From Candidatus Bathyarchaeota archaeon (lineage in GTDB: Archaea > Thermoproteota > Bathyarchaeia > Bathyarchaeales > DTEX01), in NCBI GenBank assembly GCA_018396995.1, contig JAGTQB010000002.1, positions 71,495-135,494 of the forward strand: a stretch of DNA of 64,000 nucleotides, written 5' to 3'. Each line of letters opens with the position of its first letter. Position 1 is the first letter of the stretch. Below are positions 18,563 to 30,377 of the stretch, in pieces. The notes beneath the pieces were generated by a model. That model was given only the letters and a program-made list of their open reading frames with translations, had not been told where the DNA came from and searched no databases. The position numbers were made by a program, and so were the translations under genes.

Positions 18563-19548
18563 TCTAGCATCACCTCAGGATAATAGCACATTATGACCCT
18601 GCATTCTCGATTGTAAAAGCGGTTATATAGGCTCTTAGCAAATAATCTAAAGGCTTCTCTTGAGGGTTTCTTCTCATACAAGTAGTTTAACAGCGTGCGG
18701 ATAAATGTTACATCAAGAATCTTTTTTGGCGTAGGATATCCACGCCCTACAATCTTAACGAACCCTAAGTTCATCTCATTGAAATCATATAATGCGCATG
18801 CTCCGCAGGGTCTATCATCGATGTGAAATCTCTCCCAAACCTTTTGTCTAACTCCAGCAACAATTTTCTTCTCCTCATCCTCATTAGAGTCCACAAAGAC
18901 TTCATATGACAACATACATGCATTGTTGTAGAGTGGGCCCATTGGTGGGAAATGTAGGAAGGTGCAGAATCCGTCAATATTCGCGCACTTAGAGTTCAGT
19001 ATAAAAGCGCCCAATTGAATCCCTGAAACCTCATTACAGATTTCCCTTATCTCTTCTATTGTAAGATCTCTTGGAAGCTGTACCCTTAAAACTCCCAGCT
19101 CCTGATAAAATTTTATAGCTTCAGAATTAAGCGCAACGCCGCCAATACTGACGTGCAACTTTACTCCTATATTCATCTTCCTCAGCGTTAATAGGAGGCC
19201 GAGGTCTGAGAGCACTATATAATCTACGCCGATATCAGCAGCCTTTTCCGTAATCTTTAAGAGAAGGTCGTATTGATCTGCCCTATAATAGTGTTCGTTT
19301 ATAGTTAGGGAGACCTCAGCGTTATGTGAATGAGCTATTTCAACACACTCCTCCAGCTCCTTGAAAGATTTGAGGTTAGCTGAGGGAGCCGGTCTCCTGG
19401 TTAAAGCGACTATAGCCGTGTACTTATGCAGCCACTCAGAGGGCACGAGACCGCAATAAATTTCATCTGCGCCAGCATCAATCAACTTGTCTACTTCATC
19501 AACCCTATCCACGGGAGCTAGTATCCTAATCATGCGCCCTCTACTCAA
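18541..19548 (-). CDS. peptidase U32-family protein (UbiU/YhbU-like)
   Basis: ILAPVDRVDEVDKLIDAGADEIYCG is the typical U32 N-terminus. Cys groups KCANIDGFC and RPCGAC. Confidence 0.75.
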   Translation of the reverse strand: MSRGRMIRILAPVDRVDEVDKLIDAGADEIYCGLVPSEWLHKYTAIVALTRRPAPSANLKSFKELEECVEIAHSHNAEVSLTINEHYYRADQYDLLLKITEKAADIGVDYIVLSDLGLLLTLRKMNIGVKLHVSIGGVALNSEAIKFYQELGVLRVQLPRDLTIEEIREICNEVSGIQLGAFILNSKCANIDGFCTFLHFPPMGPLYNNACMLSYEVFVDSNEDEEKKIVAGVRQKVWERFHIDDRPCGACALYDFNEMNLGFVKIVGRGYPTPKKILDVTFIRTLLNYLYEKKPSREAFRLFAKSLYNRFYNRECRVIMCYYPEVMLEWSEQHI

Positions 19549-20794
19549 GCGCCATGGCTACAAGCTCTATTAAATCATAGTATGCCATTCTCTCCCCCGC
19601 ATCAGCTATTGCCCTCTCAAAGTTTAAGGCACACCGCGGGCAACATGAGACTATTGCCTCCGCCGCGGCGTCTCTCGCCTCCTTAATTCTCTCCTTTGCA
19701 GTCCAAAGCGCGAAGCTTGGGTTAGCCTCTAGAACCCCACCTCCAGCCCCACAACACCATGCATACTCCCTTATCCTCTCCATCTCAACGAGCTCCAATC
19801 CCGGTATCGCGCGCAATACTTTCCTCGGGGCATCATAAACCCCCTTAGATCCGAAAAGCCAGACCTTTGGGGGCTCCCTCACGCCCAGCGCCTTAATCTC
19901 CCCCTGCCAAGGGACATAGGTTTCGCCGAGCCTTCCGAGCAAACATGGGTCATGATATGTTGCCCTTAAATCCACCCTTCTTGTCAGCTTTAGTCTACCT
20001 TCGTCCAGGAGTTTCTTTACAAGCTCGCTTACATGCATAACCTCAAAATTCATCTCTCTAATAACCTTCGGATACTCCCTCTTAAATGTCCCGTAGCAGT
20101 GGGCGCAGCTAACCAGTAGGGTTCTGGCTCCGGTCCTCCTAATGGAGTTAATATTATGCTCAATTAAATTTTTGGCTACGTTCCTCTGCCCGGTTCTCCA
20201 TAGGACAGCTCCGCAACAGTACTCCTCGCCTCCAAGCGTAGTAAAGTCTAGTCCAGCAGTCTTGAGTATTTTCACGGTCGCCTGTGCTATTCTTGGCTTC
20301 AAGTATGCTGTTGTGCACCCAACAAAATAGACTATCTCAGCCTTCTCCGCGGGTCCACATGCTTCCGGCATCCAGTTAAATCTCTTTTCATGGGGCTTCC
20401 CGTAGATGTTGTGGTGTCTAGTAACGTTCTCAGCAATAATCTTATGCTGGGGGAGAGGGGCTACTCCATCCTCAACGAGCTTTGCCCTGAGCTCAAGTAT
20501 TATATCGAGGACCTCGGCGTTTGCGTGAACCCATTTACATGCGTAATCGCAGTAGCCGCATATGGTACAGGAGTAAATTATTTCCTTAAGCTTCTCAGTG
20601 TAGCTCAGCTTACCTTCGAGCAGTGCGTTTGCGATGTACAGCATGCCCTGAGCCGAATATGCGTCGAATCCGAATCTTTTATGTATTGGGCAAGCCCTAT
20701 TATATTTCCAGCTCCTCTGTTTTTGGGTTGATATAACTTTGCAGAAGCCGCATCGGGTGCAGCATAATATGTCGCGCTTATAATCCTCTAGCAT
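19541..20794 (-). CDS. (Fe-S)-binding CCG-domain protein (GlcF/HdrD/GlpC-like)
   Basis: Two ferredoxin-type Cys motifs (CTRCGFC, CTICGYCDYAC) followed by two CCG-domain repeats (YCCG..., HDPC, WCCGAGGG). Confidence 0.85.
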   Translation of the reverse strand: MLEDYKRDILCCTRCGFCKVISTQKQRSWKYNRACPIHKRFGFDAYSAQGMLYIANALLEGKLSYTEKLKEIIYSCTICGYCDYACKWVHANAEVLDIILELRAKLVEDGVAPLPQHKIIAENVTRHHNIYGKPHEKRFNWMPEACGPAEKAEIVYFVGCTTAYLKPRIAQATVKILKTAGLDFTTLGGEEYCCGAVLWRTGQRNVAKNLIEHNINSIRRTGARTLLVSCAHCYGTFKREYPKVIREMNFEVMHVSELVKKLLDEGRLKLTRRVDLRATYHDPCLLGRLGETYVPWQGEIKALGVREPPKVWLFGSKGVYDAPRKVLRAIPGLELVEMERIREYAWCCGAGGGVLEANPSFALWTAKERIKEARDAAAEAIVSCCPRCALNFERAIADAGERMAYYDLIELVAMALE

Positions 20795-20805
20795 AGAACA
20801 CCCCC

Positions 20806-22314
20806 CTAAAATATTGATAATACTCCGGGGTTGAGGATATTATTAGGATCAAATATTCTCTTAAGCTGTTTAAGAATTGCCACTCCCTCAGTATACCGGT
20901 TGTATACCATGTCAGCCCAGAGACCGTAAGGCCTACTAAAGAAGGCGCCCATATTCATGAGCTCCTTGCTAGCCCTAATATAAATTCTCTTAACGATATC
21001 TGTCTCCCTTGGGTCCGCTGGGTTATATGGAAAGTCGAACTCTATGTGGTAGGCATGGCCTTGCACAATTGGCTGTATGTAGCCGCCTATATCTGTTATA
21101 GAATAGCCCATTTCAGACGCAATTCTATAAACGACCTTGGGGTATATGCTTGCTCTGCTTGGTGGTGCAAGAAAGAATACTTCGCAACATGAAGCCTTAT
21201 ACCTCAGCTTCCAATACGGCTCTTCATCCCAAGGTCTGGAGAGAAGTCTAAGCATCTTCTTCTCCTTCCCCGGAGCGCCCGGTAGCGATGGGAGGGGATC
21301 GAATGCTAGCTCCTGCGCTATGTCCATCAGACACTTCTCTTGAACTCTTATTCTCTCCTCAGCCCTCCGATATCCTCCAATCGTCAATATTACTATCCAC
21401 GGCGGAAGATTTCTCCTCAGCTTCTCAAACTCCTCAGGCCACTTCTCCGCAAGGATAACAGCCATATTAAAGTTGTTTAATGCAAGGATTTGATCGGCCA
21501 CGCTTCCCATAACCCCATATCTTAGGAGCCTATTCATGGGCTCAATAGTATCCTCAGGCTTATCAAATGGTATAAAGTAGATCTTCTGGAGGGCGGGAGC
21601 TACCTCAGCTTTAACCATAGCCCATGTAATAATTCCGAATGCTCCCTGCGCCCCCGAGAGGAGCTTAAAGTATTTTATGTCCCCTGGTCCAAAGGGATTA
21701 ACCATATCCGCATTTATCTCCTCTATTACTCCCGGACCGGAGGCGGTTCCAGTCCTGAACTCATCCCCGGTCCCGAAGATCACCTCCATTGTTAATAGTG
21801 GGTCTACGTAATCAAATTGATATTTGGGTATTGTTGGCGGCTCCCTCTCTAAGTAGCTTGTGACTACGGACTTTGATGCCCGCGGGAGGAATGGCATGTT
21901 AAGCCTTAAACCATGTTTTTCGAGTTCCGGTATGAGTTCACCGAAGGTTACACCGGGCTCAATCATCACAGCCCTATTTCTAGCATCGATTCTCAGAATA
22001 CTCTTCATCTTACTGAGGTTTACTATTATGCCCCCTTGCCTTGGTACGGTGTCTCCGCGGAAGTGGGGTGGTCCTGAGCTGACAGGTATAAGCGGAATAT
22101 TATTCTCGTTTGCGAAGAGCACTATTCTTTTAATCTCCTCCTTGCTCCTAGGGTATACCACGCATAAGGGCTTCATGGGCTTAACGAAACTATGGTCTCT
22201 TGAAAACTCCTCAAGCACTTTAGGATCATCTGAAACATTTTCTGTTCCCACAATCTCCGCTAATCTCTTAACTATCAGGTTTGGTTCCAGTAAGGTCATA
22301 TAACTTAACCTCAC
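20806..22314 (-). CDS. FAD-linked oxidase (PCMH/VAO-type, GlcD/GlcE-like)
   Basis: FAD_binding_4-type N-terminal half (IPLIPVSSGPPHFRGDTVP...MIEPGVTFGEL). Confidence 0.85.
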   Translation of the reverse strand: MRLSYMTLLEPNLIVKRLAEIVGTENVSDDPKVLEEFSRDHSFVKPMKPLCVVYPRSKEEIKRIVLFANENNIPLIPVSSGPPHFRGDTVPRQGGIIVNLSKMKSILRIDARNRAVMIEPGVTFGELIPELEKHGLRLNMPFLPRASKSVVTSYLEREPPTIPKYQFDYVDPLLTMEVIFGTGDEFRTGTASGPGVIEEINADMVNPFGPGDIKYFKLLSGAQGAFGIITWAMVKAEVAPALQKIYFIPFDKPEDTIEPMNRLLRYGVMGSVADQILALNNFNMAVILAEKWPEEFEKLRRNLPPWIVILTIGGYRRAEERIRVQEKCLMDIAQELAFDPLPSLPGAPGKEKKMLRLLSRPWDEEPYWKLRYKASCCEVFFLAPPSRASIYPKVVYRIASEMGYSITDIGGYIQPIVQGHAYHIEFDFPYNPADPRETDIVKRIYIRASKELMNMGAFFSRPYGLWADMVYNRYTEGVAILKQLKRIFDPNNILNPGVLSIF

Positions 22315-23912
22315 TCCTCTGGTATAACATAGAATTTTGGATTTGATACCAAGTTTGGATCTAAAGCCTTCTTAACCCTCATCTGCCAAATGTGGAAATT
22401 GCTATATAGTGGCCCAACTCTTTTGATATGCTCATCACCGTATGATCCAAACCGAAACATTATGTCTGGAAACTTCTCCCTAAAGTTTCTTTCCATTATT
22501 TTCCCCGCATATTCTTCCATGGCTTTCCTAGAGGCGGGGTCTGTTGGGTCGCCTAAAATTAGGTGCTCCGTGCACGCCATATGCCCATATTCTGTGGGCA
22601 CGATCCAGTAGCTGTCGGTTATGTCTACGATAAGGCCTTTCTCTACAAATTCCCTCATTATTTCAGGTATGGCCATCCCCCACTTCACCATTGTGTCAAT
22701 GGAGTCTACGCCGCAAGCGGTGCTAATGAAGCCGCCAAATTTCTGTACTCGGCAACTTGAGATTCCAAGTAGGACGCTTATCGTCGCTTGGTCAAATGTT
22801 AAGGTCTTTCCCTCTTCAAACCCATCCTCATAAAATTCTCTCGGAGCCTCCCTCCCCCCGTACTCGGCTATTATCTCTCTCACAACTTTCTCCTGATATT
22901 CCAAGTCTTCGCGGCAACAGGCTTCAATAAACACGTTAATCATGCGGGAGGTCTCAGCTTGATATATTCCACTTCTAATCTTTTCCCAGGCCTCCTCAAC
23001 CGTGGTGCAGCTCTCTATCATCATGGGCCAGTTAAAATACTTGAATATAGCTGTGCCAACTTCAGCCTTGCTTATCTCATATAAGGCGTCAGCCAAATTC
23101 CTAATACTCTTCTCCCAGCCCACTTCATTAATTCCCGGCATCTGAAACATCAATAGCTTAAATTTGTCTTCGGGAAGGTTAGTTTTATATACGAATGCTC
23201 CAGTCTTTGGATGTATAATGGTCTCTACATCAAGTTCTCTTGGACCCCACCAAGGATATAGTTTAATGGCTATTTTAGTGACTATGCCCATACCCGCCCG
23301 TGTTAGTAAGCCGTCTAGGCCTGGACCCGGCCCTGTGGGGCAGAACCAGCCAGCTCCCACACCCAGCGAACCTACCCTCACAATATCGCCGGTTGGCGTC
23401 ACCCATTCCGCGGCCAATGCGTGTCTCCGCCCATCAGAGAACCTGTTGGCCATATACCCATGCCCCTCTATACCCTTTGCCAGAGCCCCCACTAAAGCGG
23501 ACCCTACAACACTGGCCGCTGGGTACTGTAGCCCCCTCTTAAAACACTCTATCGCGAGAGCAGCTCTTGTAACCCCGGGCTCAACAACGGCATACATATC
23601 CTTCTCATTAATCTCAATTATTCTATCCATTCTCTTTAGATCGAATAGGAGCATGTCTGGCTCTGTGCACGCTGGCTGCATTGTAACGAAGCATGAGAAC
23701 CTTATCTTATACCTGTTACATACTTTTACGATTGCGGAAACCTCCTCCGTAGTCTTTGGCATAACGACAGCTGCTGGAGGATATGAGGGGGGCATCGCTC
23801 CACTGCGGTGATACGCGGCGAGCACTGCTGGGTCATCGCTTATATTCTCCGGTCCAACGATGTCCTCAATTATCCTATAAGCGATTCTAGGCAAACCCAC
23901 AATTACCACCAC
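22311..23912 (-). CDS. FAD-linked oxidase (PCMH/VAO-type), divergent second subunit
   Basis: IVGPENISDDPAVLAAY...VVEPGVTRAAL; 4-nt overlap with the downstream paralogue. Confidence 0.8.
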   Translation of the reverse strand: MVVIVGLPRIAYRIIEDIVGPENISDDPAVLAAYHRSGAMPPSYPPAAVVMPKTTEEVSAIVKVCNRYKIRFSCFVTMQPACTEPDMLLFDLKRMDRIIEINEKDMYAVVEPGVTRAALAIECFKRGLQYPAASVVGSALVGALAKGIEGHGYMANRFSDGRRHALAAEWVTPTGDIVRVGSLGVGAGWFCPTGPGPGLDGLLTRAGMGIVTKIAIKLYPWWGPRELDVETIIHPKTGAFVYKTNLPEDKFKLLMFQMPGINEVGWEKSIRNLADALYEISKAEVGTAIFKYFNWPMMIESCTTVEEAWEKIRSGIYQAETSRMINVFIEACCREDLEYQEKVVREIIAEYGGREAPREFYEDGFEEGKTLTFDQATISVLLGISSCRVQKFGGFISTACGVDSIDTMVKWGMAIPEIMREFVEKGLIVDITDSYWIVPTEYGHMACTEHLILGDPTDPASRKAMEEYAGKIMERNFREKFPDIMFRFGSYGDEHIKRVGPLYSNFHIWQMRVKKALDPNLVSNPKFYVIPEE

Positions 23913-23948: not shown

Positions 23949-24434
23949 TTACTTCTTGCGTAGGCGGCGGATCTCTTCAGGAGTGAAGAGCACTCGTTGC
24001 CTATGCGTTGGAATCTGGTGTCCAACGCTAGTATATGTTGATGCAAAAAGAATGTGACCCCATAGGAATGGCTTGCCAACCCTTTTTATAATGATGGGGC
24101 CATGTGGCATTCCCTTAGGAACATAAACTATGGATGTATTCTCAATAACGTGCTTTTCCTGTTCCTCACCCAAATATACTTCGACTTCGGCATCAAACTC
24201 GAAAAAGTTCGCTGGGTTGCCACCTAATATGAACAGTATTTCGTCCGAATCATGCCAATGGGGTCTACCCACCATTGTAAACGGCTCTGTTATATACATG
24301 AGTTGGAGGTCTGCTGGGAAACCGGGGAGCCTTATAAAACATTCTTCATGGCCGCACGCATGTATACTTGGGTATCCTCTTATGTTCTCTAATGGCTCCT
24401 TAATAATATACTTCCCATACTTTGTCTCGCTCAA
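23949..24434 (-). CDS. single-domain cupin, same family as the three bicupins at 26.8-29.9 kb
   Basis: PHWHDSDEILFILGG...AEVEVYLGEEQEKHVI...VPKGMPHGP aligns with each half of the 308-316-aa paralogues. Confidence 0.6.
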   Translation of the reverse strand: MSETKYGKYIIKEPLENIRGYPSIHACGHEECFIRLPGFPADLQLMYITEPFTMVGRPHWHDSDEILFILGGNPANFFEFDAEVEVYLGEEQEKHVIENTSIVYVPKGMPHGPIIIKRVGKPFLWGHILFASTYTSVGHQIPTHRQRVLFTPEEIRRLRKK

Positions 24435-24558
24435 TGTTACCTCCTCCGTGAGACTGAAGTCTCCGGAAAATATTTAAAACTTTCCTAAAGTTATTAAGCT
24501 GGCTTCAGATTTTTTAAAAAAAGATTTAAGGTGATTGTATTGTTTAGCAAGGTTTTCT

Positions 24559-24702
24559 TTACATTAGCCTATCCAATAGATAGTAGAATGCTGTTGAGAA
24601 TATCTCTATTAATACTACAGCAATAATTGACCCTGAGAGTTCACCAGTAAAAACATATGTTATGAGTAGAGCGACTGGGTCAACTACAAGCCGATATATC
24701 AA
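24559..24702 (-). CDS. possible DUF2061-like small membrane ORF (may be truncated)
   Basis: My translation is LIYRLVVDPVALLITYVFTGELSGSIIAVVLIEIFSTAFYYLLDRLM*. It resembles DUF2061 two-TM proteins. Only a TTG start is available and an in-frame stop lies 14 codons upstream. Confidence 0.3.
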   Translation of the reverse strand: MIYRLVVDPVALLITYVFTGELSGSIIAVVLIEIFSTAFYYLLDRLM

Positions 24703-24834
24703 TGTCTTCTTTAGGCTGGTTTTTCGAGGGCGGTAAATTGGCTAGGCATCCCTTCCACCACTCAGTGGATAAAAAGTATAGAGTAAAAAATATTTAAGAG
24801 TTACTTCCCACACGAGTCTACTTAATTATTCTTT

Positions 24835-25416
24835 TCACCTTGGCTTACATATAATCTCCTTAATTTTTCTTCTTTCTTCCTTTCTACCGAGGATAGGCTC
24901 TAATTTAAGGAAGTCTTTGCTTTTTATAGCTTCCATAATAATGGCTGTGTCTACGCCGCCACCCTTCTCATAGCCTAGTCCTCCGGTTCCGCCAATTGCA
25001 ATAACTTCTTCTCCGGGCTGAATGAAGCCGGCCTCGGTGGCCACTAATACGATCTCAACACAAACTTTGAGTCCCTCACAGAATCTGCGTAAAGTGTCCT
25101 GTAGGACTTCTGGAAACTCATATTTTACGTCTGTGGCGTAGCAGAAATTGTGCCCCATCTGCTCCAGCTTACGTCGTAAATTCTCTGGAAAACCAGGGAA
25201 GGGCGAGCCCGGCGGGCCTCTTAAACCCACGACAGTCAGCTTAATGTTAGTGTCCTTAAATATTTCTAAGGCCTTCTCAGCCGAGAAACCCGTAACTGAG
25301 GCTAAAATAACATTCTTTATTCCCCTCGCAATTGCTCTTTCCCTAGCCAATTTAAGTGTATCTTCAGTGTTATGTTTCCCCCCGCTCTCAAAGTAAACTA
25401 TCTTCTCCATAATCAT
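24835..25416 (-). CDS. pyruvate kinase C-terminal (alpha/beta) domain-like protein
   Basis: YFESGGKHNTEDTLKLARERA...VILASVTG...AIGGTGG resembles stand-alone PK_C-like proteins. Confidence 0.55.
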   Translation of the reverse strand: MIMEKIVYFESGGKHNTEDTLKLARERAIARGIKNVILASVTGFSAEKALEIFKDTNIKLTVVGLRGPPGSPFPGFPENLRRKLEQMGHNFCYATDVKYEFPEVLQDTLRRFCEGLKVCVEIVLVATEAGFIQPGEEVIAIGGTGGLGYEKGGGVDTAIIMEAIKSKDFLKLEPILGRKEERRKIKEIICKPR

Positions 25417-25497
25417 AACTAAAACTTCCCTCCCTATGGATTAAAAATTCATAGCTTCCTTAGAGTATTTAAAATCTTTTACTTGAACATCTCATAT

Positions 25498-26634
25498 TTA
25501 TTGGGATAAAAGTCCACGGGCTTTCTTTAGCCAATCTATTATTGGGATTTTTCTCGGACACTTCTTTACGCACTCGCCGCATTCGTTGCAATCTTCTATT
25601 CTATGTCCCTCAATCTTATAGTAAAAGCGGGAAGTCTTAGCATCGTCATAAGCTATGGCGTCCTCATAGAGCTCAAATACGCGGGGAACATTAATCCCCT
25701 GGGGACAAGGCATACAACAATAGCATGTGGCGCACTTAATTGGTCTCATTTTGAGATAAGCATCCTTAATGTTCTCGAAGGCTATTAGCTCCTGTACGCT
25801 GAGATTGTTTGCATCAGATTTTTCTACTAATGCAATATACTCAAGCATCTGCTCTACTCCATTAAAATCAACAACAACAGTTGAAACCTCCGGGTGATTC
25901 CATATCCACCTCAGCCCCCACTCAGCTAAAGAACCCCTGCTGAGTAGCTCCTCCCAATACTTAGTAACGGGCTCAGGCGGCTTTTTAAGGAGATTACCCC
26001 CCTTAAATGGATCAGTAACAACCACAGCTAATCCATTACTAGCAGCATATTTGAGCCCGGTGATCCCGGGGTGGTGGTTTACATCAACATAGCTATACTT
26101 TATTTGGCAAAACGCCCATCCTTTATAGGCTGTTATGATATCTCTTAGGTATGGTGTGTCATCGTGGAAAGAGAACCCAACTATCCCTATTTTCCCCTCC
26201 TCAATAGTTTTATCCACCCACTCAATTATATTCAACTTCTTTATTTTAGGCCACGTCTCTCTATTCAGCTCCCCTATAACACAGAAGTCGATTCTCGAAG
26301 CTCTCAAAGTCCTGAGATATTCATCTAAATAATGGTTTAGGTCAGAAATAGAATTTATTGAGGCTATGGGAAAAGTTAGAGAAATCTTAGCTTTTTCTAG
26401 ATAATTCCCCCGAAGGGCCTCACTTATAACTTCTAGTCTTCGCCTATATGTTTCCATGTCGTAGGGGTGGCCTAAGTCAAAGTAATTTATTCCTTGATCC
26501 ACAGCACATTGTATAAGTTCAATTGCTTTATTCTCGTTCATTGAGTCTAGGTAGCAGGCGCCGAAAGATAGCACTGAAACCTCAAACTTAGTGTTACCAA
26601 ACTTTCTGTACTTCATGTTTAGCACCCGAGACAA
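25498..26634 (-). CDS. aldo/keto reductase with C-terminal 4Fe-4S domain (COG1453-like)
   Basis: MKYRKFGNTKFEVSVLSFG AKR N-terminus. C-terminal CATCYCCMPCP and CNECGECVKKCP. Confidence 0.85.
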   Translation of the reverse strand: MSRVLNMKYRKFGNTKFEVSVLSFGACYLDSMNENKAIELIQCAVDQGINYFDLGHPYDMETYRRRLEVISEALRGNYLEKAKISLTFPIASINSISDLNHYLDEYLRTLRASRIDFCVIGELNRETWPKIKKLNIIEWVDKTIEEGKIGIVGFSFHDDTPYLRDIITAYKGWAFCQIKYSYVDVNHHPGITGLKYAASNGLAVVVTDPFKGGNLLKKPPEPVTKYWEELLSRGSLAEWGLRWIWNHPEVSTVVVDFNGVEQMLEYIALVEKSDANNLSVQELIAFENIKDAYLKMRPIKCATCYCCMPCPQGINVPRVFELYEDAIAYDDAKTSRFYYKIEGHRIEDCNECGECVKKCPRKIPIIDWLKKARGLLSQ

Positions 26635-26839
26635 CTCATTTTACGTAATTGGTGAACTTGTTATTTTAGAGACATTCTTAGCATCAATATTTAAAAGTAT
26701 TTGAATCAACTCTTTTCCACTATAAACTTTCATAGGCTATTATGGCAGTTTCTGGGTGATAGAAGAATAATGTTATTGATGTATATGAGCCTACGTCCCA
26801 TGTGAGAATAGAAATAAATAATGAGGGTAAATGTTTTAG

Positions 26840-27790
26840 TTATTCCTCTTGGGGTAGCCAAGTGGTTTCATGTTCGGCGTCGAGACACATAACTATGAAC
26901 CCATAGGGCTTATCAACCCATAACGTTATCTCTGGACAGTGAACTAAGTTTCTAGGAGCTATGACTGCAGAGGGCACTTTAATTAAATGTCTCTCTCCCT
27001 CTTCTCCTAAAGCGAACTCCACTTCGGCTCCCAAGTACTGCAGGTTATTTGGGTCTAAGCCTACAAAGATTAATGCTTCGTCAACCGGGTGTACATGCGC
27101 TCCTCCCCTACCAATCCTATGCCAGATTCCAGGGCGACTATAAAACCCCCATGAAACATTCAACTTTATGTTCTCAAGGTTTTCACCATAAAACCATACA
27201 ATCTGTTCGGCGTTCCCAGGCCCTGGAGGAATAAATCTAGACCTGGCTGCTGTGGGCGGCATTAATTTTTTGCTCATGCAGAAGCGGGCCATCCTGAATG
27301 GTTTTATCAAGCGCATATACTTTGTTCCCGGGGCCGCAGATGTCTTCTTTGGCACTCTATCCGCCCTATATTCGGAACTTAGCCCCACTAAATAGTGAGC
27401 TATTGGTTTTTCGAGCCATTTAACCTTTACTGGTCCATGTGGTGTACCCCTCGGAATAACCACTGCAGCTGCCTCATAAAAAGTGTACTCCTCATTTTCT
27501 TTTCCAAGACATATAGATATCTCTGCGTTTAGATCGAGGATATCGCCTGATGCGTCAATAGGAGCAAAAATTAAGACTTCATCATATGGATGTAGGAGCA
27601 GCTCATCGCTCACTGGGTGACAGATGCACGGTTCCTTTATGAATCCATAGGAGAATATTACATTTAACCCCTCAAGATCCCTCGACTCCATCCAGAAGCG
27701 TGGTTCAGGGTAAAGTCCTTCTGGGCCAGATTTAACAATTAATGGTTTAACTAAATTCCTATACTTTTTCTCCATAAGAGTGGCGCCCAT
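26840..27790 (-). CDS. bicupin protein, uncharacterised family (paralogue A)
   Basis: Two internal cupin repeats. The C-terminal repeat keeps HVHPVDE (HxHxxxE) plus a downstream His; the N-terminal repeat has LHPYDE. Confidence 0.6.
   Translation of the reverse strand: MGATLMEKKYRNLVKPLIVKSGPEGLYPEPRFWMESRDLEGLNVIFSYGFIKEPCICHPVSDELLLHPYDEVLIFAPIDASGDILDLNAEISICLGKENEEYTFYEAAAVVIPRGTPHGPVKVKWLEKPIAHYLVGLSSEYRADRVPKKTSAAPGTKYMRLIKPFRMARFCMSKKLMPPTAARSRFIPPGPGNAEQIVWFYGENLENIKLNVSWGFYSRPGIWHRIGRGGAHVHPVDEALIFVGLDPNNLQYLGAEVEFALGEEGERHLIKVPSAVIAPRNLVHCPEITLWVDKPYGFIVMCLDAEHETTWLPQEE
27057..27106. repeat. 50-nt exact inverted repeat, partner at 28606..28655
   Basis: By-eye alignment of paralogue A against the reverse complement of B over the GGAHVHPVDEALIFVGL codons. 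The same spurious ORF peptide LQRLMLRQPGVHALL appears in both antisense frames. Confidence 0.7.
27637..27694. repeat. 58-nt exact inverted repeat, partner at 28018..28075
   Basis: By-eye alignment over the WMESRDLEGLNVIFSYGFI codons. The flanks diverge immediately. Confidence 0.7.
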
Positions 27791-27927
27791 AACTATTTTC
27801 GGCTCTATCCAATATATAAGTGTGGGGGATCTATAAGTTTAAATTCGCTTTAAAATAGTGTTGCAGCAAGTTCTCTAAAAATAGAGAAGTCTTAAATACT
27901 TGGTGGAGAAAGTAAGCTGAGATTGAG

Positions 27928-28875
27928 GTGAGAGGCTTGGCAAAAAAGTATGAGCGCTTTGTTAAGCCACTGATTGTTAGGATGGGACCTGAGGGGCTTT
28001 ACCCAGAAATGCGTATATGGATGGAGTCGAGGGATCTTGAGGGGTTAAATGTAATATTCTCCTATGGATTCATAAGAAACCAAGGAGTACCCTGCCATCC
28101 AGTGAAAGGAGATCAGGCCGTTGTTCATCCATATGATGAAGTCCTAGCTTTTGTCGGTATTGACACAAGGGATATAACGAGACTCGGGGGAGAAATTTCG
28201 ATAGAGATCGGTGAAAAGCCTGAAGAATACACTTTTAATGAACCAACTGTTGTCGTTATTCCGAGGGGTACACCACATGGACCTATAGTCGCCAAAAAGT
28301 TAGAGATGCCAATTGCACACTATCTTGTGGGCTTAGCTCCTGAATACAAAGGGGCGCTGGTTCCCAAAAAAGAAAAGTCTACTGAGAAGAATTATGCGCA
28401 TTTAGTAAAGAAGTTTAAAACAACGCCCATTTTACAATATTCAGTTGGCCTTGTAGACGAAAGAGGTGTAATTAAAGCCACAAAGTATGTTGGTCCGGGA
28501 AACGCTGACGAGCTAATATGGATATATGGAGTTGATCTCGGGCTTCCGCTAAATATATCTTGGGGCTTCTATAGCCAATGCGGCATATGGCATAAGAGGC
28601 CTGGTGGAGGAGCGCATGTACACCCGGTTGACGAAGCATTAATCTTTGTAGGCTTGAACCCCTTTGACCTATACTATTTGGGTGCACAGGTAGAATTTGA
28701 CCTTGGTGAAGAAGCTGAGCGACATATAATAAATGTTCCGACAGCAGTTATAGCCCCGAAAGGTCTTGTTCATTGTCCAGAAATAACTTGGTGGGTTGAG
28801 AGACCTTACGGTTTCATTGTACTCTGTCTCCACGAAGAACATGAAACGCACTGGCTTCCGACACTACCCTTCTAA
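27928..28875 (+). CDS. bicupin protein, uncharacterised family (paralogue B)
   Basis: Collinear with A and C, divergently oriented to A with a 137-nt spacer. Confidence 0.6.
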   Translation: MRGLAKKYERFVKPLIVRMGPEGLYPEMRIWMESRDLEGLNVIFSYGFIRNQGVPCHPVKGDQAVVHPYDEVLAFVGIDTRDITRLGGEISIEIGEKPEEYTFNEPTVVVIPRGTPHGPIVAKKLEMPIAHYLVGLAPEYKGALVPKKEKSTEKNYAHLVKKFKTTPILQYSVGLVDERGVIKATKYVGPGNADELIWIYGVDLGLPLNISWGFYSQCGIWHKRPGGGAHVHPVDEALIFVGLNPFDLYYLGAQVEFDLGEEAERHIINVPTAVIAPKGLVHCPEITWWVERPYGFIVLCLHEEHETHWLPTLPF

Positions 28876-28942
28876 ACTCTCCAAAATTTCTGCTAATACC
28901 TGTATAATAATCCATCACGATTTTTATCTCTAAAATCAAAAA

Positions 28943-29869
28943 TTATTGCGTGAATAACCATCTCGCCTCATATTTTAATCCTAAGTAGAGATGGAAGTGC
29001 GCATAGGGTGTTTCCACCCATCGTGTTATAACTGGGCAGTGAACGAAGTTCTTTGGAGCCACTACAGCTGTCGGCCTATTGATGACGTGTCTTTCATCCT
29101 CTTCCCCCAATCCTATTTCTATCTCCGCTCCTAAGTAGTTGATATCGTTTGGATTAAGGCCTAAGAAGAAGAGCACTTCATCAACTGGATGTATGTGTGC
29201 TCCTCCACCCTGTGTGCCATGCCAAATGCCTGGACTGCTATAGAATCCCCATGAAATGTTCAGTTCTATTCCCTCAAGATCTTTTCCACTAAACCATGCT
29301 ATTTGATCTGCATTGCCAGGATTTCTTGCCCTCACACCTGGGGGCATGGTTCTCGCAAGTTTCTTACTGAGCAGGAGCCAAGCTCCTCTAAACCTCTTTA
29401 TCAAATGAGAGTAATTCATCCCTCTGGACTTACCCTCCCTCGGGGTAGAAACAGCTTTATACTCCGGCCACAGTCCAACTAAGTAGTGTACTATAGGTTC
29501 CTCTAACGCTCTTACTGTGATGGGTCCATGTGGCGTGCCTCTCGGAATAACTACAGCTGAGGGTTCATTAATTACATGTTCCTCAAACTCTCTTCCCAGA
29601 GTTATAGTGATCTCGGCATTTAAGTCTAGTATGTCTTTGGATGCATTGCATGGAGCGAAGACTAATACTTCATCATAGGGGTGCATGAGGGCTTTATCCG
29701 TATTAATTGGATGAAATGATTCTCCAACATTCTTTAGAAACCCATATGAGAAGTGGACGCCAAGCCCCTCTAGATCCCTATAATCCGCCCATATCCGCGG
29801 CTCGGGGTAAAGTCCCTGAGGCCCCTCCCTTAAATTTAAGAGCTTAAGTAGATGACCATGTTTCTTCAT
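28943..29869 (-). CDS. bicupin protein, uncharacterised family (paralogue C)
   Basis: Collinear with A and B (HIHPVDEVLFFLGLNP..., PRGTPHGP). Confidence 0.6.
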   Translation of the reverse strand: MKKHGHLLKLLNLREGPQGLYPEPRIWADYRDLEGLGVHFSYGFLKNVGESFHPINTDKALMHPYDEVLVFAPCNASKDILDLNAEITITLGREFEEHVINEPSAVVIPRGTPHGPITVRALEEPIVHYLVGLWPEYKAVSTPREGKSRGMNYSHLIKRFRGAWLLLSKKLARTMPPGVRARNPGNADQIAWFSGKDLEGIELNISWGFYSSPGIWHGTQGGGAHIHPVDEVLFFLGLNPNDINYLGAEIEIGLGEEDERHVINRPTAVVAPKNFVHCPVITRWVETPYAHFHLYLGLKYEARWLFTQ

Positions 29870-29930: not shown

Positions 29931-30377
29931 TTAGGGAGTGAAGAGTATTTTCTCCCAAGTTACGCTCACAGAAGCTTCAAGTCTATTTACTGAAGCATTG
30001 AGCTCTTCTAAGGCTCTCCTAAAGTTATATATGCATGTTCCAACATCGCCCTTATCACACATTATTACCGCAATTACATCGTGCTGCCCGTAAGTTCTCC
30101 ATAATAATTTAACTTGGTGTTGAACTTTCAAGAAGGAAATAACTTTATCAATATCCTTTGGGCTTAAATTCATACCTATAATTACGGCTGAAAATCCAAT
30201 TTTACTAAAATCTGGAATAGCCATAATTATCTTCCTTATAACACCATCTTTTTCAAGTCTAGCCACCCTCCGATAAACTGTATTCCGGCTAGTTCCACAA
30301 AGTCTCGCTAGATCTTCATAAGAATATAGCCCCTCACACATATATCTCAGTATTTTCATGTCAAGTTGATCTATCAT
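29931..30377 (-). CDS. Lrp/AsnC-family transcriptional regulator
   Basis: The HTH (LDMKILRYM...YEDLARLCGTSRNTVYRRVARLEKDGVI) is followed by an RAM/ACT-like domain. Confidence 0.85.
   Translation of the reverse strand: MIDQLDMKILRYMCEGLYSYEDLARLCGTSRNTVYRRVARLEKDGVIRKIIMAIPDFSKIGFSAVIIGMNLSPKDIDKVISFLKVQHQVKLLWRTYGQHDVIAVIMCDKGDVGTCIYNFRRALEELNASVNRLEASVSVTWEKILFTP

What the first reader, a model, noticed from the sequence alone, without database searches (positions are those of the whole stretch)
23949..29869. Lineage-specific expansion of an uncharacterised cupin family: 7 cupin domains in 4 genes within 6 kb
Three paralogues of 308-316 aa lie at 26840-27790, 27928-28875 and 28943-29869. 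Each consists of two homologous cupin units. A 161-aa single-unit member (23949-24434) heads the U32/flavoprotein operon.

The C-terminal units keep a metal-site-like HxHxxxE (H[VI]HPVDE) plus a later His (LVHCP). The N-terminal units have LHPYDE and PRGTPHGP. The small protein has HWHDSDE. So only some of the units look metal-competent.

I cannot assign the family to any characterised cupin enzyme. The genes sit beside an Lrp/AsnC regulator, an acyl-CoA ligase, an Fe-S aldo/keto reductase and the flavoprotein operon. That neighbourhood suggests enzymes such as an isomerase, decarboxylase or dioxygenase-like protein, rather than storage or regulatory cupins.
Basis: partly seen in the sequence, partly recalled or inferred. 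Interest (0 to 1): 0.6.

Follow-up and report, generated by a model that had tools for sequence, protein, structure and literature searches.

The report
Uncharacterised bicupin family with Fe-S reductase partner
The four genes are real members of a cupin-fold protein family that no curated database describes. The family is not peculiar to this archaeon: it is widespread in uncultured anaerobes and almost always sits just upstream of an iron-sulfur aldo/keto-reductase-like gene, so it is probably a two-enzyme catabolic module of unknown substrate.

Summary
Three paralogues of 308-316 aa, each an internal duplication of a cupin unit, and one 161-aa single-unit relative lie at the stated coordinates. 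AlphaFold2 models are confident (pLDDT 92). Foldseek confirms a bicupin and a monocupin fold, but the nearest solved structures (oxalate decarboxylase, MncA, seed globulins) are only generic matches. No Pfam or NCBIfam model reaches its cut-off, and no solved structure matches by sequence.

The interpretation needs three corrections.
- The family is not lineage-specific. Relatives at about 47-51% identity occur in Dehalococcoidales, Thermodesulfobacteriota/Myxococcota, Acidobacteriota, Bacillota and Actinomycetota genomes recovered from metagenomes (MAGs), and tandem copies are the rule there too. The three window copies form a Bathyarchaeia-only clade, and each has its own orthologues in other Bathyarchaeia.
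- All units keep metal ligands. The N site has His/Glu/His in 104 of 107 sequences and the C site has 3 His + Glu in 106 of 107.
It lies in 69 of 79 genome loci, and the reverse search agrees. Uptake transporters often sit inside the same operon.

Most likely this is a metal-dependent, oxygen-independent enzyme (isomerase, epimerase or lyase type) paired with the Fe-S reductase. The substrate is unknown.

The parts
26840..27790 (-). Bicupin paralogue A (316 aa as the ORF; the identical database protein has 311 aa, consistent with a start at Met6, 27775)
   Evidence: AF2 model pLDDT 92.3, pTM 0.91. Foldseek finds bicupins with probability 1.0. Orthologues in L011 and L012.
27928..28875 (+). Bicupin paralogue B, transcribed divergently from A
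   Evidence: Orthologues in L012, L014 and L016. It has the highest contig depth in a metatranscriptome from a roughly 98%-identical strain.
28943..29869 (-). Bicupin paralogue C, 61 nt downstream of the Lrp/AsnC gene
   Evidence: Orthologues in L013 and L015.
23949..24434 (-). Single-unit cupin of the same superfamily with a full HxHxxxE...PxGxxH ligand set; first gene of the FAD/FAD/CCG/U32 row
   Evidence: AF2 pLDDT 92.0. Foldseek finds only generic cupins.
25498..26634 (-). Aldo/keto-reductase-like TIM barrel fused to a domain with 8 conserved Cys (two CxxCxxCxxxC-type motifs, read as two [4Fe-4S] sites); the conserved partner of the bicupins
   Evidence: Pfam Aldo_ket_red plus Fer4 models. 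A homologue is present in 69 of 79 bicupin loci and lies immediately downstream in 55. Reciprocal test. Residue conservation.
27791..27927 (.). 137-nt AT-rich divergent intergenic region between A and B (presumed promoters)
   Evidence: Sequence printed. Promoter function is inferred, not tested.
29931..30377 (-). Lrp/AsnC-type regulator directly upstream of C (local candidate regulator; bacterial loci use MarR, LysR, GntR or LuxR-type regulators instead)
   Evidence: Other regulators. An Lrp gene was found beside bicupins by tblastn in only 1 of 79 loci.
19541..23912 (-). Two FAD_binding_4 flavoproteins plus a CCG Fe-S protein (GlcDEF-like); the conserved neighbour of the small cupin within Bathyarchaeia
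   Evidence: The same trio lies next to the small-cupin orthologue in L094 and L095, in a different gene order and followed by a 2-oxoacid:ferredoxin oxidoreductase.

Best explanation
The four genes belong to one cupin family that no curated database describes.

The three long genes are two-domain bicupins. Together with the adjacent gene at 25498-26634 they form a two-gene module that is conserved across Archaea and Bacteria. That adjacent gene encodes an aldo/keto-reductase-like TIM barrel fused to a di-[4Fe-4S] domain. In relatives the module is co-oriented with, and often interleaved with, genes for solute uptake (TRAP, SBP5-type ABC and MFS transporters) and a local regulator. I therefore read it as a cytoplasmic catabolic enzyme pair of strict anaerobes.

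Inferred mechanism:
- Each bicupin carries two mononuclear metal sites: His/Glu/His in the N barrel and 3 His + Glu in the C barrel.
- It uses them for an oxygen-independent transformation of a carbonyl- or carboxylate-bearing small molecule. Metal-assisted enolisation would give isomerisation, epimerisation or a lyase/decarboxylase step.
- The Fe-S reductase then carries out the redox step on the same metabolite and passes electrons through its clusters.
- Tandem paralogues provide either different substrate specificities or hetero-oligomers.

The 161-aa monocupin is a single-unit relative. In Bathyarchaeia it works with a GlcDEF-like 2-hydroxy-acid dehydrogenase, plausibly on the 2-oxo or 2-hydroxy acid.

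Shown: the fold, ligand conservation, phyletic spread, the conserved gene pairing and the operon contexts. Inferred: metal binding, the reaction type and the direction of electron flow. Unknown: the substrate.
For: Fold:
- AF2 pLDDT is 92.3 for the bicupin and 92.0 for the monocupin.
- Foldseek matches bicupins and cupins with probability 1.0.

Family status:
- No Pfam or NCBIfam model reaches its cut-off for any of 43 members.
- All source names are 'hypothetical protein'.

Spread:
- 343 homologues were found.
- 562 representative clusters at the 50% identity level match.
- 208 genome loci encode relatives, and the best 79 are all MAGs of anaerobic lineages.

Partner gene:
- An AKR-FeS homologue is present in 69 of 79 loci.
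- It lies directly downstream on the same strand in 55 of them. In most of the rest it is separated only by further bicupin copies or a transporter operon.
- In a search seeded on the AKR-FeS protein, 44 of 80 metagenome loci have a bicupin directly upstream and 7 have one elsewhere in the locus. Of the other 29, 14 are too short to judge.

Operon contexts:
- bicupins-DctPQM-AKR in L059 and L068.
- bicupins-SBP5/ABC-AKR in L046.
- DctPQM-bicupins-AKR-SBP5/ABC in L017 and L036.

Ligands:
- H67/E71/H118 are kept in 104 of 107 sequences.
- H232/H234/E238/H284 are kept in 106 of 107.
- Further near-invariant His residues are H58, H224, H132, H268 and H307.

Partner protein residues:
- Eight Cys are invariant.
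- Asp, Tyr and Lys/Arg of the AKR tetrad are mostly kept, but the catalytic His position is Gly.

Expression: a metatranscriptome holds contigs over the bicupins and the small-cupin operon.

Anaerobic hosts: Dehalococcoidales, Bathyarchaeia, Desulfobacteraceae, Moorellales and Syntrophomonadaceae. That these are strict anaerobes is established knowledge, not a result obtained here.
Against: - There is no biochemical or genetic evidence for any member, and no cultured organism appears among the 79 loci read.
- The reaction type rests on analogy with other non-oxidative cupins. Foldseek's best matches (oxalate decarboxylase, MncA, globulins) are not isomerases.
- Contexts other than the AKR-FeS gene are heterogeneous.
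- In Dehalococcoidales the module sits beside MarR plus a MATE efflux pump, which fits a detoxification role as well.
- About 10 of 79 bicupin loci lack the AKR-FeS gene, and 15 of 66 informative AKR-FeS loci lack a bicupin.
- In the window a 205-nt gap separates A from the AKR gene, and the AKR gene has low metatranscriptome depth.
- The model coordinates could not be inspected, so the geometry of the proposed sites is not verified.
Confidence: 0.5

Rival explanations
1. The module is an electrophile or xenobiotic defence system. The bicupin and the AKR-FeS protein would detoxify reactive carbonyls, quinones or phenolics, under a MarR-type sensor and together with efflux pumps.
For: At least 10 Dehalococcoidales loci show the block MATE< MarR< bicupin> bicupin> AKR-FeS> MFS<. 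Nitroreductase, peroxiredoxin and flavodoxin/ODP genes lie nearby. That AKRs and some cupins serve carbonyl and quinone detoxification is established knowledge.
Against: In other phyla, uptake systems with solute-binding proteins (DctP, SBP_bac_5) sit inside the same operon, between the bicupins and the AKR gene. That pattern points to import and use, not export. Identity near 50% between domains of life, together with fixed paralogue order, suggests a specific substrate.
Confidence: 0.2
2. The bicupin is an oxygen-dependent enzyme of the oxalate decarboxylase/oxidase, quercetinase or ring-cleaving dioxygenase type.
For: The best Foldseek matches of the bicupin are Mn oxalate decarboxylases (E about 1e-13). 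Ni-quercetinase is among the best matches of the small cupin. A His/His/Glu triad is typical of non-haem Fe(II) oxygenases (established knowledge).
Against: The hosts belong to strictly anaerobic lineages. The partner carries oxygen-sensitive [4Fe-4S] clusters. Identity to OxdC is only 11-13% and TM-score about 0.55. Most N sites lack the fourth ligand that OxdC has. No oxalate, formate or aromatic ring-cleavage genes recur nearby.
Confidence: 0.07
3. The bicupins are not catalysts. They would be metal-binding, metal-delivery or structural subunits (for example for Ni or Mn) that serve the AKR-FeS enzyme or buffer metal.
For: - MncA, a Mn-binding bicupin, is a top structural match.
- The bicupin to AKR gene ratio is about 2:1, with conserved paralogue order.
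- HypA or HypB nickel chaperone genes lie beside the module in L013, L017, L021 and L072.
- The SBP5 proteins in the operons match nickel NikA models best, though below the cut-off.
Against: The proteins are cytoplasmic, with no signal peptide visible in the sequences. Near-invariant extra His, Tyr, Asp and Arg residues lie around both ligand sets, which is what a substrate pocket looks like. The hyp genes are present in only 4 of 79 loci and may serve hydrogenases.
Confidence: 0.1

Closest known systems
Bacillus subtilis oxalate decarboxylase OxdC (PDB 1J58, 1UW8) and cyanobacterial MncA (2VQA)
   Same: Two cupin barrels in one chain. The C-terminal barrel has the 3 His + 1 Glu ligand pattern. 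They are the best Foldseek matches (E from 1e-13 to 1e-11, probability 1.0).
   Different: Identity is 11-13% and TM-score about 0.5-0.57. There is no sequence-level match. Most N barrels lack the first His. OxdC needs O2, whereas the hosts here are anaerobes. MncA is periplasmic. Neither has an AKR-FeS partner.
Non-oxidative cupin isomerases and epimerases paired with a reductase: KduI/KduD, BacB/BacG(YwfH), MarH
   Same: The logic is the same: a metal cupin enolises or isomerises a keto acid or keto sugar acid, and a neighbouring reductase takes the product (established knowledge of those pathways). MarH and a non-haem-iron epimerase/lyase are among the structural matches of the small cupin. 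MarH is the only cupin among the weak PDB sequence hits (E 0.6). An SDR gene recurs in 21 of 79 loci.
   Different: The family does not match the KduI/IolB Pfam model, nor any other model beyond sub-threshold Cupin_1/Cupin_2 hits. The conserved reductase here is an AKR-like barrel with Fe-S clusters, not an SDR. No uronate, bacilysin or maremycin pathway genes are present.
Aldo/keto reductase-ferredoxin fusion proteins (COG1453 / K07079 type), for the partner gene
   Same: The architecture is Aldo_ket_red plus a two-cluster Fer4 domain. This group is also uncharacterised: the few papers that hold these identifiers are not studies of the protein, judged from their titles and abstracts only.
   Different: This subgroup is defined by its bicupin neighbour and has Gly at the catalytic His position. 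That it equals COG1453 / K07079 rests on my recollection of those definitions and was not tested.

Membership tests
Cupin superfamily (bicupin architecture) | Two double-stranded beta-helix (jelly-roll) barrels in one chain | tested here: met
   The AF2 model has pLDDT 92.3 and two all-beta halves. Foldseek matches solved bicupins with probability 1.0. The internal repeat scores E from 1e-14 to 1e-30.
Cupin superfamily (bicupin architecture) | Motif 1, G(X)5HXH(X)3-4E(X)6G | tested here: met
   The C units and the small protein have HxHxxxE. The N units have (L/V/I)xHxxxE, with the first His lost except in 11 of 107 sequences.
Cupin superfamily (bicupin architecture) | Motif 2, PxGxxH | tested here: met
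   N unit P113-x-G115-x-x-H118. C unit P279-x-(G/A/N)-x-x-H284. Both His are invariant in 107 of 107 sequences.
Cupin superfamily (bicupin architecture) | Score above the gathering threshold of a Pfam cupin model | tested here: not met
   Cupin_2 scores at most 19 bits against a cut-off of 27.2, and only 7 of 43 members reach E <= 0.1. Membership of the superfamily therefore rests on fold and motifs, not on a curated model.
Oxalate decarboxylase / oxidase (OxdC type) | 3 His + 1 Glu Mn site in both barrels | tested here: not met
   The N barrel lacks the first His in 96 of 107 sequences.
Oxalate decarboxylase / oxidase (OxdC type) | Detectable sequence relationship to OxdC | tested here: not met
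   OxdC does not appear in phmmer or hmmsearch against PDB even at E <= 10. Foldseek alignments show 11-13% identity.
Oxalate decarboxylase / oxidase (OxdC type) | O2-dependent catalysis | not testable with these tools
   The hosts are anaerobic lineages, which argues against it.
KduI / IolB keto-uronate isomerases | Match to the Pfam KduI/IolB model | tested here: not met
   No such hit at E <= 1 for the four window proteins or at E <= 0.1 for 43 members.
3-aminobutyryl-CoA ammonia lyase (NF052388) | Score above the model cut-off across family members | tested here: not met
   One member of 43 matches, at 18 bits against a cut-off of 160. This is chance-level.
Aldo/keto reductase superfamily (partner gene 25498-26634) | Catalytic tetrad Asp-Tyr-Lys-His | tested here: inconclusive
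   Among 54 orthologues, Asp is kept in 45, Tyr in 37 and Lys/Arg in 50. The His position is Gly in 45 and is never His. The Pfam Aldo_ket_red score of 67 bits is above the cut-off.

The most novel reading that the evidence does not exclude
The bicupin and the AKR-di[4Fe-4S] protein together form a previously unrecognised two-component enzyme that is independent of oxygen and possibly of nicotinamide cofactors. It may also be nickel-dependent. It would process an imported organic acid, with plant- or lignin-derived phenolic acids as candidates. It has been multiplied in Dehalococcoidales and Bathyarchaeia, two uncultured lineages that I recall as abundant in anoxic sediments. If so, it would account for part of their unexplained capacity to degrade organic matter.
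Probability: 0.15. Interest if true: 0.8.

Novelty: new variant of a known kind. Interest (0 to 1): 0.5.

Why it matters
Cupins are a well-known fold, so a new cupin family is not surprising in itself. Four things stand out here.
- The proteins are about 50% identical between Archaea and Bacteria, yet no curated model covers them and none of the relatives found comes from a cultured organism.
- The family is locked to an equally uncharacterised Fe-S aldo/keto-reductase-like partner.
- It is multiplied two- to four-fold per locus in several phyla independently.
- It sits in operons with uptake systems in Dehalococcoidales and Bathyarchaeia, organisms whose carbon metabolism is known mostly from genome inference.

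The module is small (two genes). It comes with its own solute-binding proteins, which could reveal the substrate. It is therefore a tractable entry point for assigning a function to several hundred 'hypothetical' genes.

Tried and rejected
- Curated family assignment. Pfam and NCBIfam scans of the four proteins and of 43 family members gave only sub-threshold Cupin_1/Cupin_2 hits and one chance hit to 3-aminobutyryl-CoA ammonia lyase (1 of 43 members).
- Sequence search of PDB, with a single sequence and with a profile, gave nothing meaningful. The hits were imidazoleglycerol-phosphate dehydratase at E about 0.3 and MarH at E 0.6.
- An enoyl-CoA-hydratase-cupin 'fusion' (P0143) looked like a Rosetta-stone clue to CoA-ester substrates. 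The alignment shows that the hydratase part replaces the first 86 residues of the N barrel, ligands included. I treat it as a chimera or a broken gene.
- Window neighbours as conserved partners. The Lrp regulator, the acyl-CoA ligase, the FAD/CCG genes, the U32 pair and the PK_C-like gene are found beside bicupins in 0-3 of 79 loci.
- Literature. Searches for bicupin plus AKR, anaerobic, COG1453 or K07079 found no characterised member. The anaerobic phloroglucinol pathway paper does not contain the word 'cupin'.
- O-demethylase link. A URO-D-like gene lies beside the module in 15 of about 165 loci, but a corrinoid protein accompanies it in only 2. This is suggestive, not established.
Whole-genome search for copy number and co-occurrence was shut. 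No model coordinates, no AlphaFold DB library and no multimer prediction were available.


Full report
**Observation**

- The three long proteins share 57-61% identity.
- Each is an internal duplication. N and C halves match at 30-42% identity, with E-values from 1e-14 to 1e-30.
- The 161-aa protein matches both kinds of half and is closer to the C halves (37-43% identity).
- A tblastn search of the whole 64-kb window finds these seven units and no others.
- The database protein identical to copy A has 311 aa, consistent with a start at Met6.

**Fold and family**

An AlphaFold2 model of copy A, built on 43 homologues, is confident (mean pLDDT 92.3, pTM 0.91) and consists of two beta barrels. 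Foldseek against the PDB returns bicupins with probability 1.0. The best matches are Bacillus oxalate decarboxylase, MncA and 11S/7S seed globulins, but identity is only 8-13% and TM-score about 0.5-0.57.

The small protein also models well (pLDDT 92.0). It matches a mixed set of monocupins at E about 1e-6: MncA, archaeal phosphomannose isomerase, Ni-quercetinase, a non-haem-iron epimerase/lyase, MarH, RemF and ectoine synthase.

- No Pfam or NCBIfam model reaches its cut-off for the four proteins or for any of 43 family members. Cupin_2 appears only below threshold, in 7 of 43 members.
- Sequence searches of the PDB find nothing.
- Every source name seen is 'hypothetical protein'.

**Distribution and history**

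The family is not lineage-specific.
- The word-indexed search found 343 homologues, with bacterial proteins at about 47-51% identity.
- The exhaustive search found 562 representative clusters at E <= 1e-3.
- A scan of one genome per species found 208 loci.
- The best 79 loci are all MAGs: mostly Dehalococcoidales, plus Bathyarchaeia, Desulfobacteraceae and other Thermodesulfobacteriota/Myxococcota, Acidobacteriota, Bacillota (including Moorellales and Syntrophomonadaceae) and Actinomycetota.
- In those 79 loci I count 129 family ORFs in 74 loci. Tandem copies are therefore the rule.

In a maximum-likelihood tree, the window's A, B and C fall in one Bathyarchaeia-only clade of 11 sequences (SH-aLRT 99). 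Each has its own orthologues in other Bathyarchaeia MAGs: A with L011 and L012, B with L012, L014 and L016, and C with L013 and L015. The triplication happened inside Bathyarchaeia but before these species separated.

Independent duplications exist elsewhere. Dehalococcoidales keep an ordered pair of paralogues upstream of the partner gene in at least 13 genomes. Bacillota and Myxococcota have their own sets.

**The conserved partner**

Of all the window neighbours, only the gene at 25498-26634 travels with the bicupins. It encodes Aldo_ket_red plus a two-cluster ferredoxin domain.
- A homologue lies in 69 of 79 loci.
- It is directly downstream on the same strand in 55 loci.
- In most of the others it is separated only by a further bicupin copy or a transporter operon.
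- The Lrp gene, the acyl-CoA ligase, the FAD/CCG genes, the U32 pair and the PK_C-like gene recur in 0-3 loci.

I tested the reverse direction with a scan of metagenome contigs seeded on the AKR-FeS protein alone.

| Result in 80 loci | Number |
|---|---|
| Bicupin directly upstream | 44 |
| Bicupin elsewhere in the locus | 7 |
| Too little upstream sequence to judge | 14 |
| No bicupin (12 of the 15 have an AKR at 39-42% identity) | 15 |

The partner keeps eight invariant Cys. It mostly keeps Asp, Tyr and Lys/Arg of the AKR tetrad, but has Gly where the catalytic His should be.

**Operon contexts**

Outside Dehalococcoidales the module is interleaved with uptake genes on one strand, with short gaps (Pfam checks).
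- L059 and L068: a LuxR/MalT-type regulator, bicupin, monocupin, bicupin, DctP-DctQ-DctM, AKR-FeS.
- L046: bicupin x2, SBP5, two permeases, two ATPases, AKR-FeS.
- L017 and L036: DctPQM, (SnoaL), bicupin x2-3, AKR-FeS, then SBP5/ABC.
- Dehalococcoidales: ABC ATPases, SDR, one or two small family members, MATE< MarR<, bicupin, bicupin, AKR-FeS, MFS<, a NifX-like gene and a CoA-binding gene.
- Bathyarchaeia relatives add MFS, SBP5/ABC, DUF169, a URO-D-like gene (with a corrinoid protein in L016) and a luciferase-like gene.

This pattern favours import and use of a small organic molecule. The MarR/MATE block keeps a detoxification reading alive.

**Metal sites**

Counts below are over 107 family sequences.

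| Site | Ligand residues | Kept in |
|---|---|---|
| C barrel | H232, H234, E238, H284 | 106 of 107 |
| N barrel | H67, E71, H118 | 104 of 107 |

The first His position of the N site is Leu, Val or Ile in most sequences and His in 11. Further near-invariant His residues sit at equivalent places in both barrels (H58 and H224) and at H132, H268 and H307.

All seven units in the window therefore look metal-competent. The N sites have three protein ligands and the C sites have four. I could not inspect the model coordinates, so the geometry is unverified.

**A nickel lead**

- HypA scores above its NCBIfam cut-off and lies upstream on the same strand in L013 (the orthologue group of copy C, next to an Mrp/MinD-type ATPase), L017 and L021.
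- HypB lies in L017 and L072.
- The four SBP5 proteins I tested from these operons all have nickel NikA models as their best hit. The scores are far below the cut-off, and GsiB and CntA follow closely.

This is a lead, not a finding. The hyp genes may serve hydrogenases, and L017 and L021 are not independent.

**The small cupin**

Its family is smaller, with 32 homologues in Bathyarchaeia, WOR-3, Acidobacteriota and others.
- In another Bathyarchaeia lineage it again lies next to the FAD/FAD/CCG trio. There the gene order differs, a 2-oxoacid:ferredoxin oxidoreductase follows, and there are no U32 genes.
- In bacteria it lies next to a glycyl-radical enzyme and its activase, or next to Fe-ADH and aldehyde dehydrogenase genes.
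- Single-unit relatives of 146-169 aa also lie inside bacterial bicupin operons.

**Expression**

A sediment metatranscriptome from a strain about 98% identical holds contigs over the FAD/CCG genes, the small cupin and the bicupins. Depth is highest over copy B (about 73x against 15-20x elsewhere) and low over the AKR gene. Contig depth is a poor measure, and DNA carry-over is possible. I take it only as support that the genes are transcribed.

**Mechanism and rivals**

I commit to a metal-dependent, oxygen-independent enzyme. It would work on a carbonyl- or carboxylate-bearing metabolite by metal-assisted enolisation (isomerase, epimerase or lyase/decarboxylase type), with the AKR-FeS protein doing the redox step. 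My confidence is about 0.5 for the whole statement, above 0.9 for the family and module facts, and about 0.35 for the reaction class.

| Rival reading | Confidence |
|---|---|
| Electrophile defence module | 0.2 |
| Non-catalytic metal-handling or structural subunit | 0.1 |
| O2-dependent oxidase or dioxygenase | 0.07 |

**Comparison with known systems and novelty**

It works most like the cupin-isomerase-plus-reductase pairs (KduI/KduD, BacB/YwfH) and the 2-oxo-acid epimerase MarH. It is not a member of those families: no model match was found. It is not an OxdC-type enzyme either, because that family's ligand-set and sequence criteria are not met. I class it as a new variant of a known kind: a new, widely distributed bicupin family defined by an Fe-S AKR-like partner.

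**Limits**

- The whole-genome search was shut.
- No AlphaFold DB library, multimer prediction or model coordinates were available.
- All related loci come from metagenome bins, at least one of which is in conflict: L071 and L072 carry identical bicupin proteins but are assigned to different phyla.

Noticed in passing
window 27057-28655 (genes A and B): A and B share exact identity tracts of 58 nt and 50 nt (plus one of 29 nt), although the genes are otherwise about 70-80% identical at best. No such tracts exist between A and C or between B and C. This fits gene conversion between the divergently oriented neighbours.
   Followed up: partly
L013:2565-3729, L017:231-2471, L021:246-620, L072:8473-9045: The nickel chaperone genes hypA and hypB (or an Mrp/MinD-type ATPase in the archaeon) lie beside bicupin operons in four loci from different lineages. 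The SBP_bac_5 proteins in the operons score best against nickel NikA models, though well below the cut-off. The family may be nickel-dependent.
   Followed up: partly
L017:916-1875, L072:5852-8173: Cys-rich proteins of 319-382 aa lie directly next to hypB in two phyla. They have a weak winged-helix match at the N terminus, CxxCxxCxxxC ferredoxin motifs and a CCxCCC motif. No Pfam family covers the whole protein.
   Followed up: no
L071 and L072: Contigs carrying identical bicupin proteins (their other genes 97-100% identical) are filed under a Dehalococcoidaceae MAG and a Bathyarchaeia MAG. One of the two bins is contaminated. By the tree, the genes are of the Dehalococcoidales type.
   Followed up: no
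window 25498-26634 and 54 orthologues: The AKR-like partner never has the catalytic His of the AKR tetrad (Gly in 45 of 54). In the C-terminal motif that I recall as binding NADPH, it has Asp where canonical AKRs have Gly. It may not be a standard NAD(P)H enzyme.
   Followed up: partly
L016:140-2067: A URO-D-like protein and a B12-binding corrinoid protein (a methyltransferase-system signature) lie directly beside three bicupins and the AKR-FeS gene in a Bathyarchaeia MAG. URO-D-like genes recur in 15 loci, mostly without the corrinoid protein.
   Followed up: partly
L092:3440-7411: In a WOR-3 bacterium the small-cupin orthologue follows a glycyl-radical enzyme and its radical-SAM activase on the same strand.
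   Followed up: no
P0143 (representative library): A 463-aa protein joins a truncated enoyl-CoA hydratase domain to a bicupin that lacks its first 86 residues or so. It is probably a chimeric or broken gene rather than a functional fusion.
   Followed up: yes
window 24835-25416: A 193-aa protein lies between the AKR-FeS gene and the small cupin. It has only a borderline match to the pyruvate kinase C-terminal domain (27.8 bits against a cut-off of 28) and no homologue in any of the 79 related loci.
   Followed up: no
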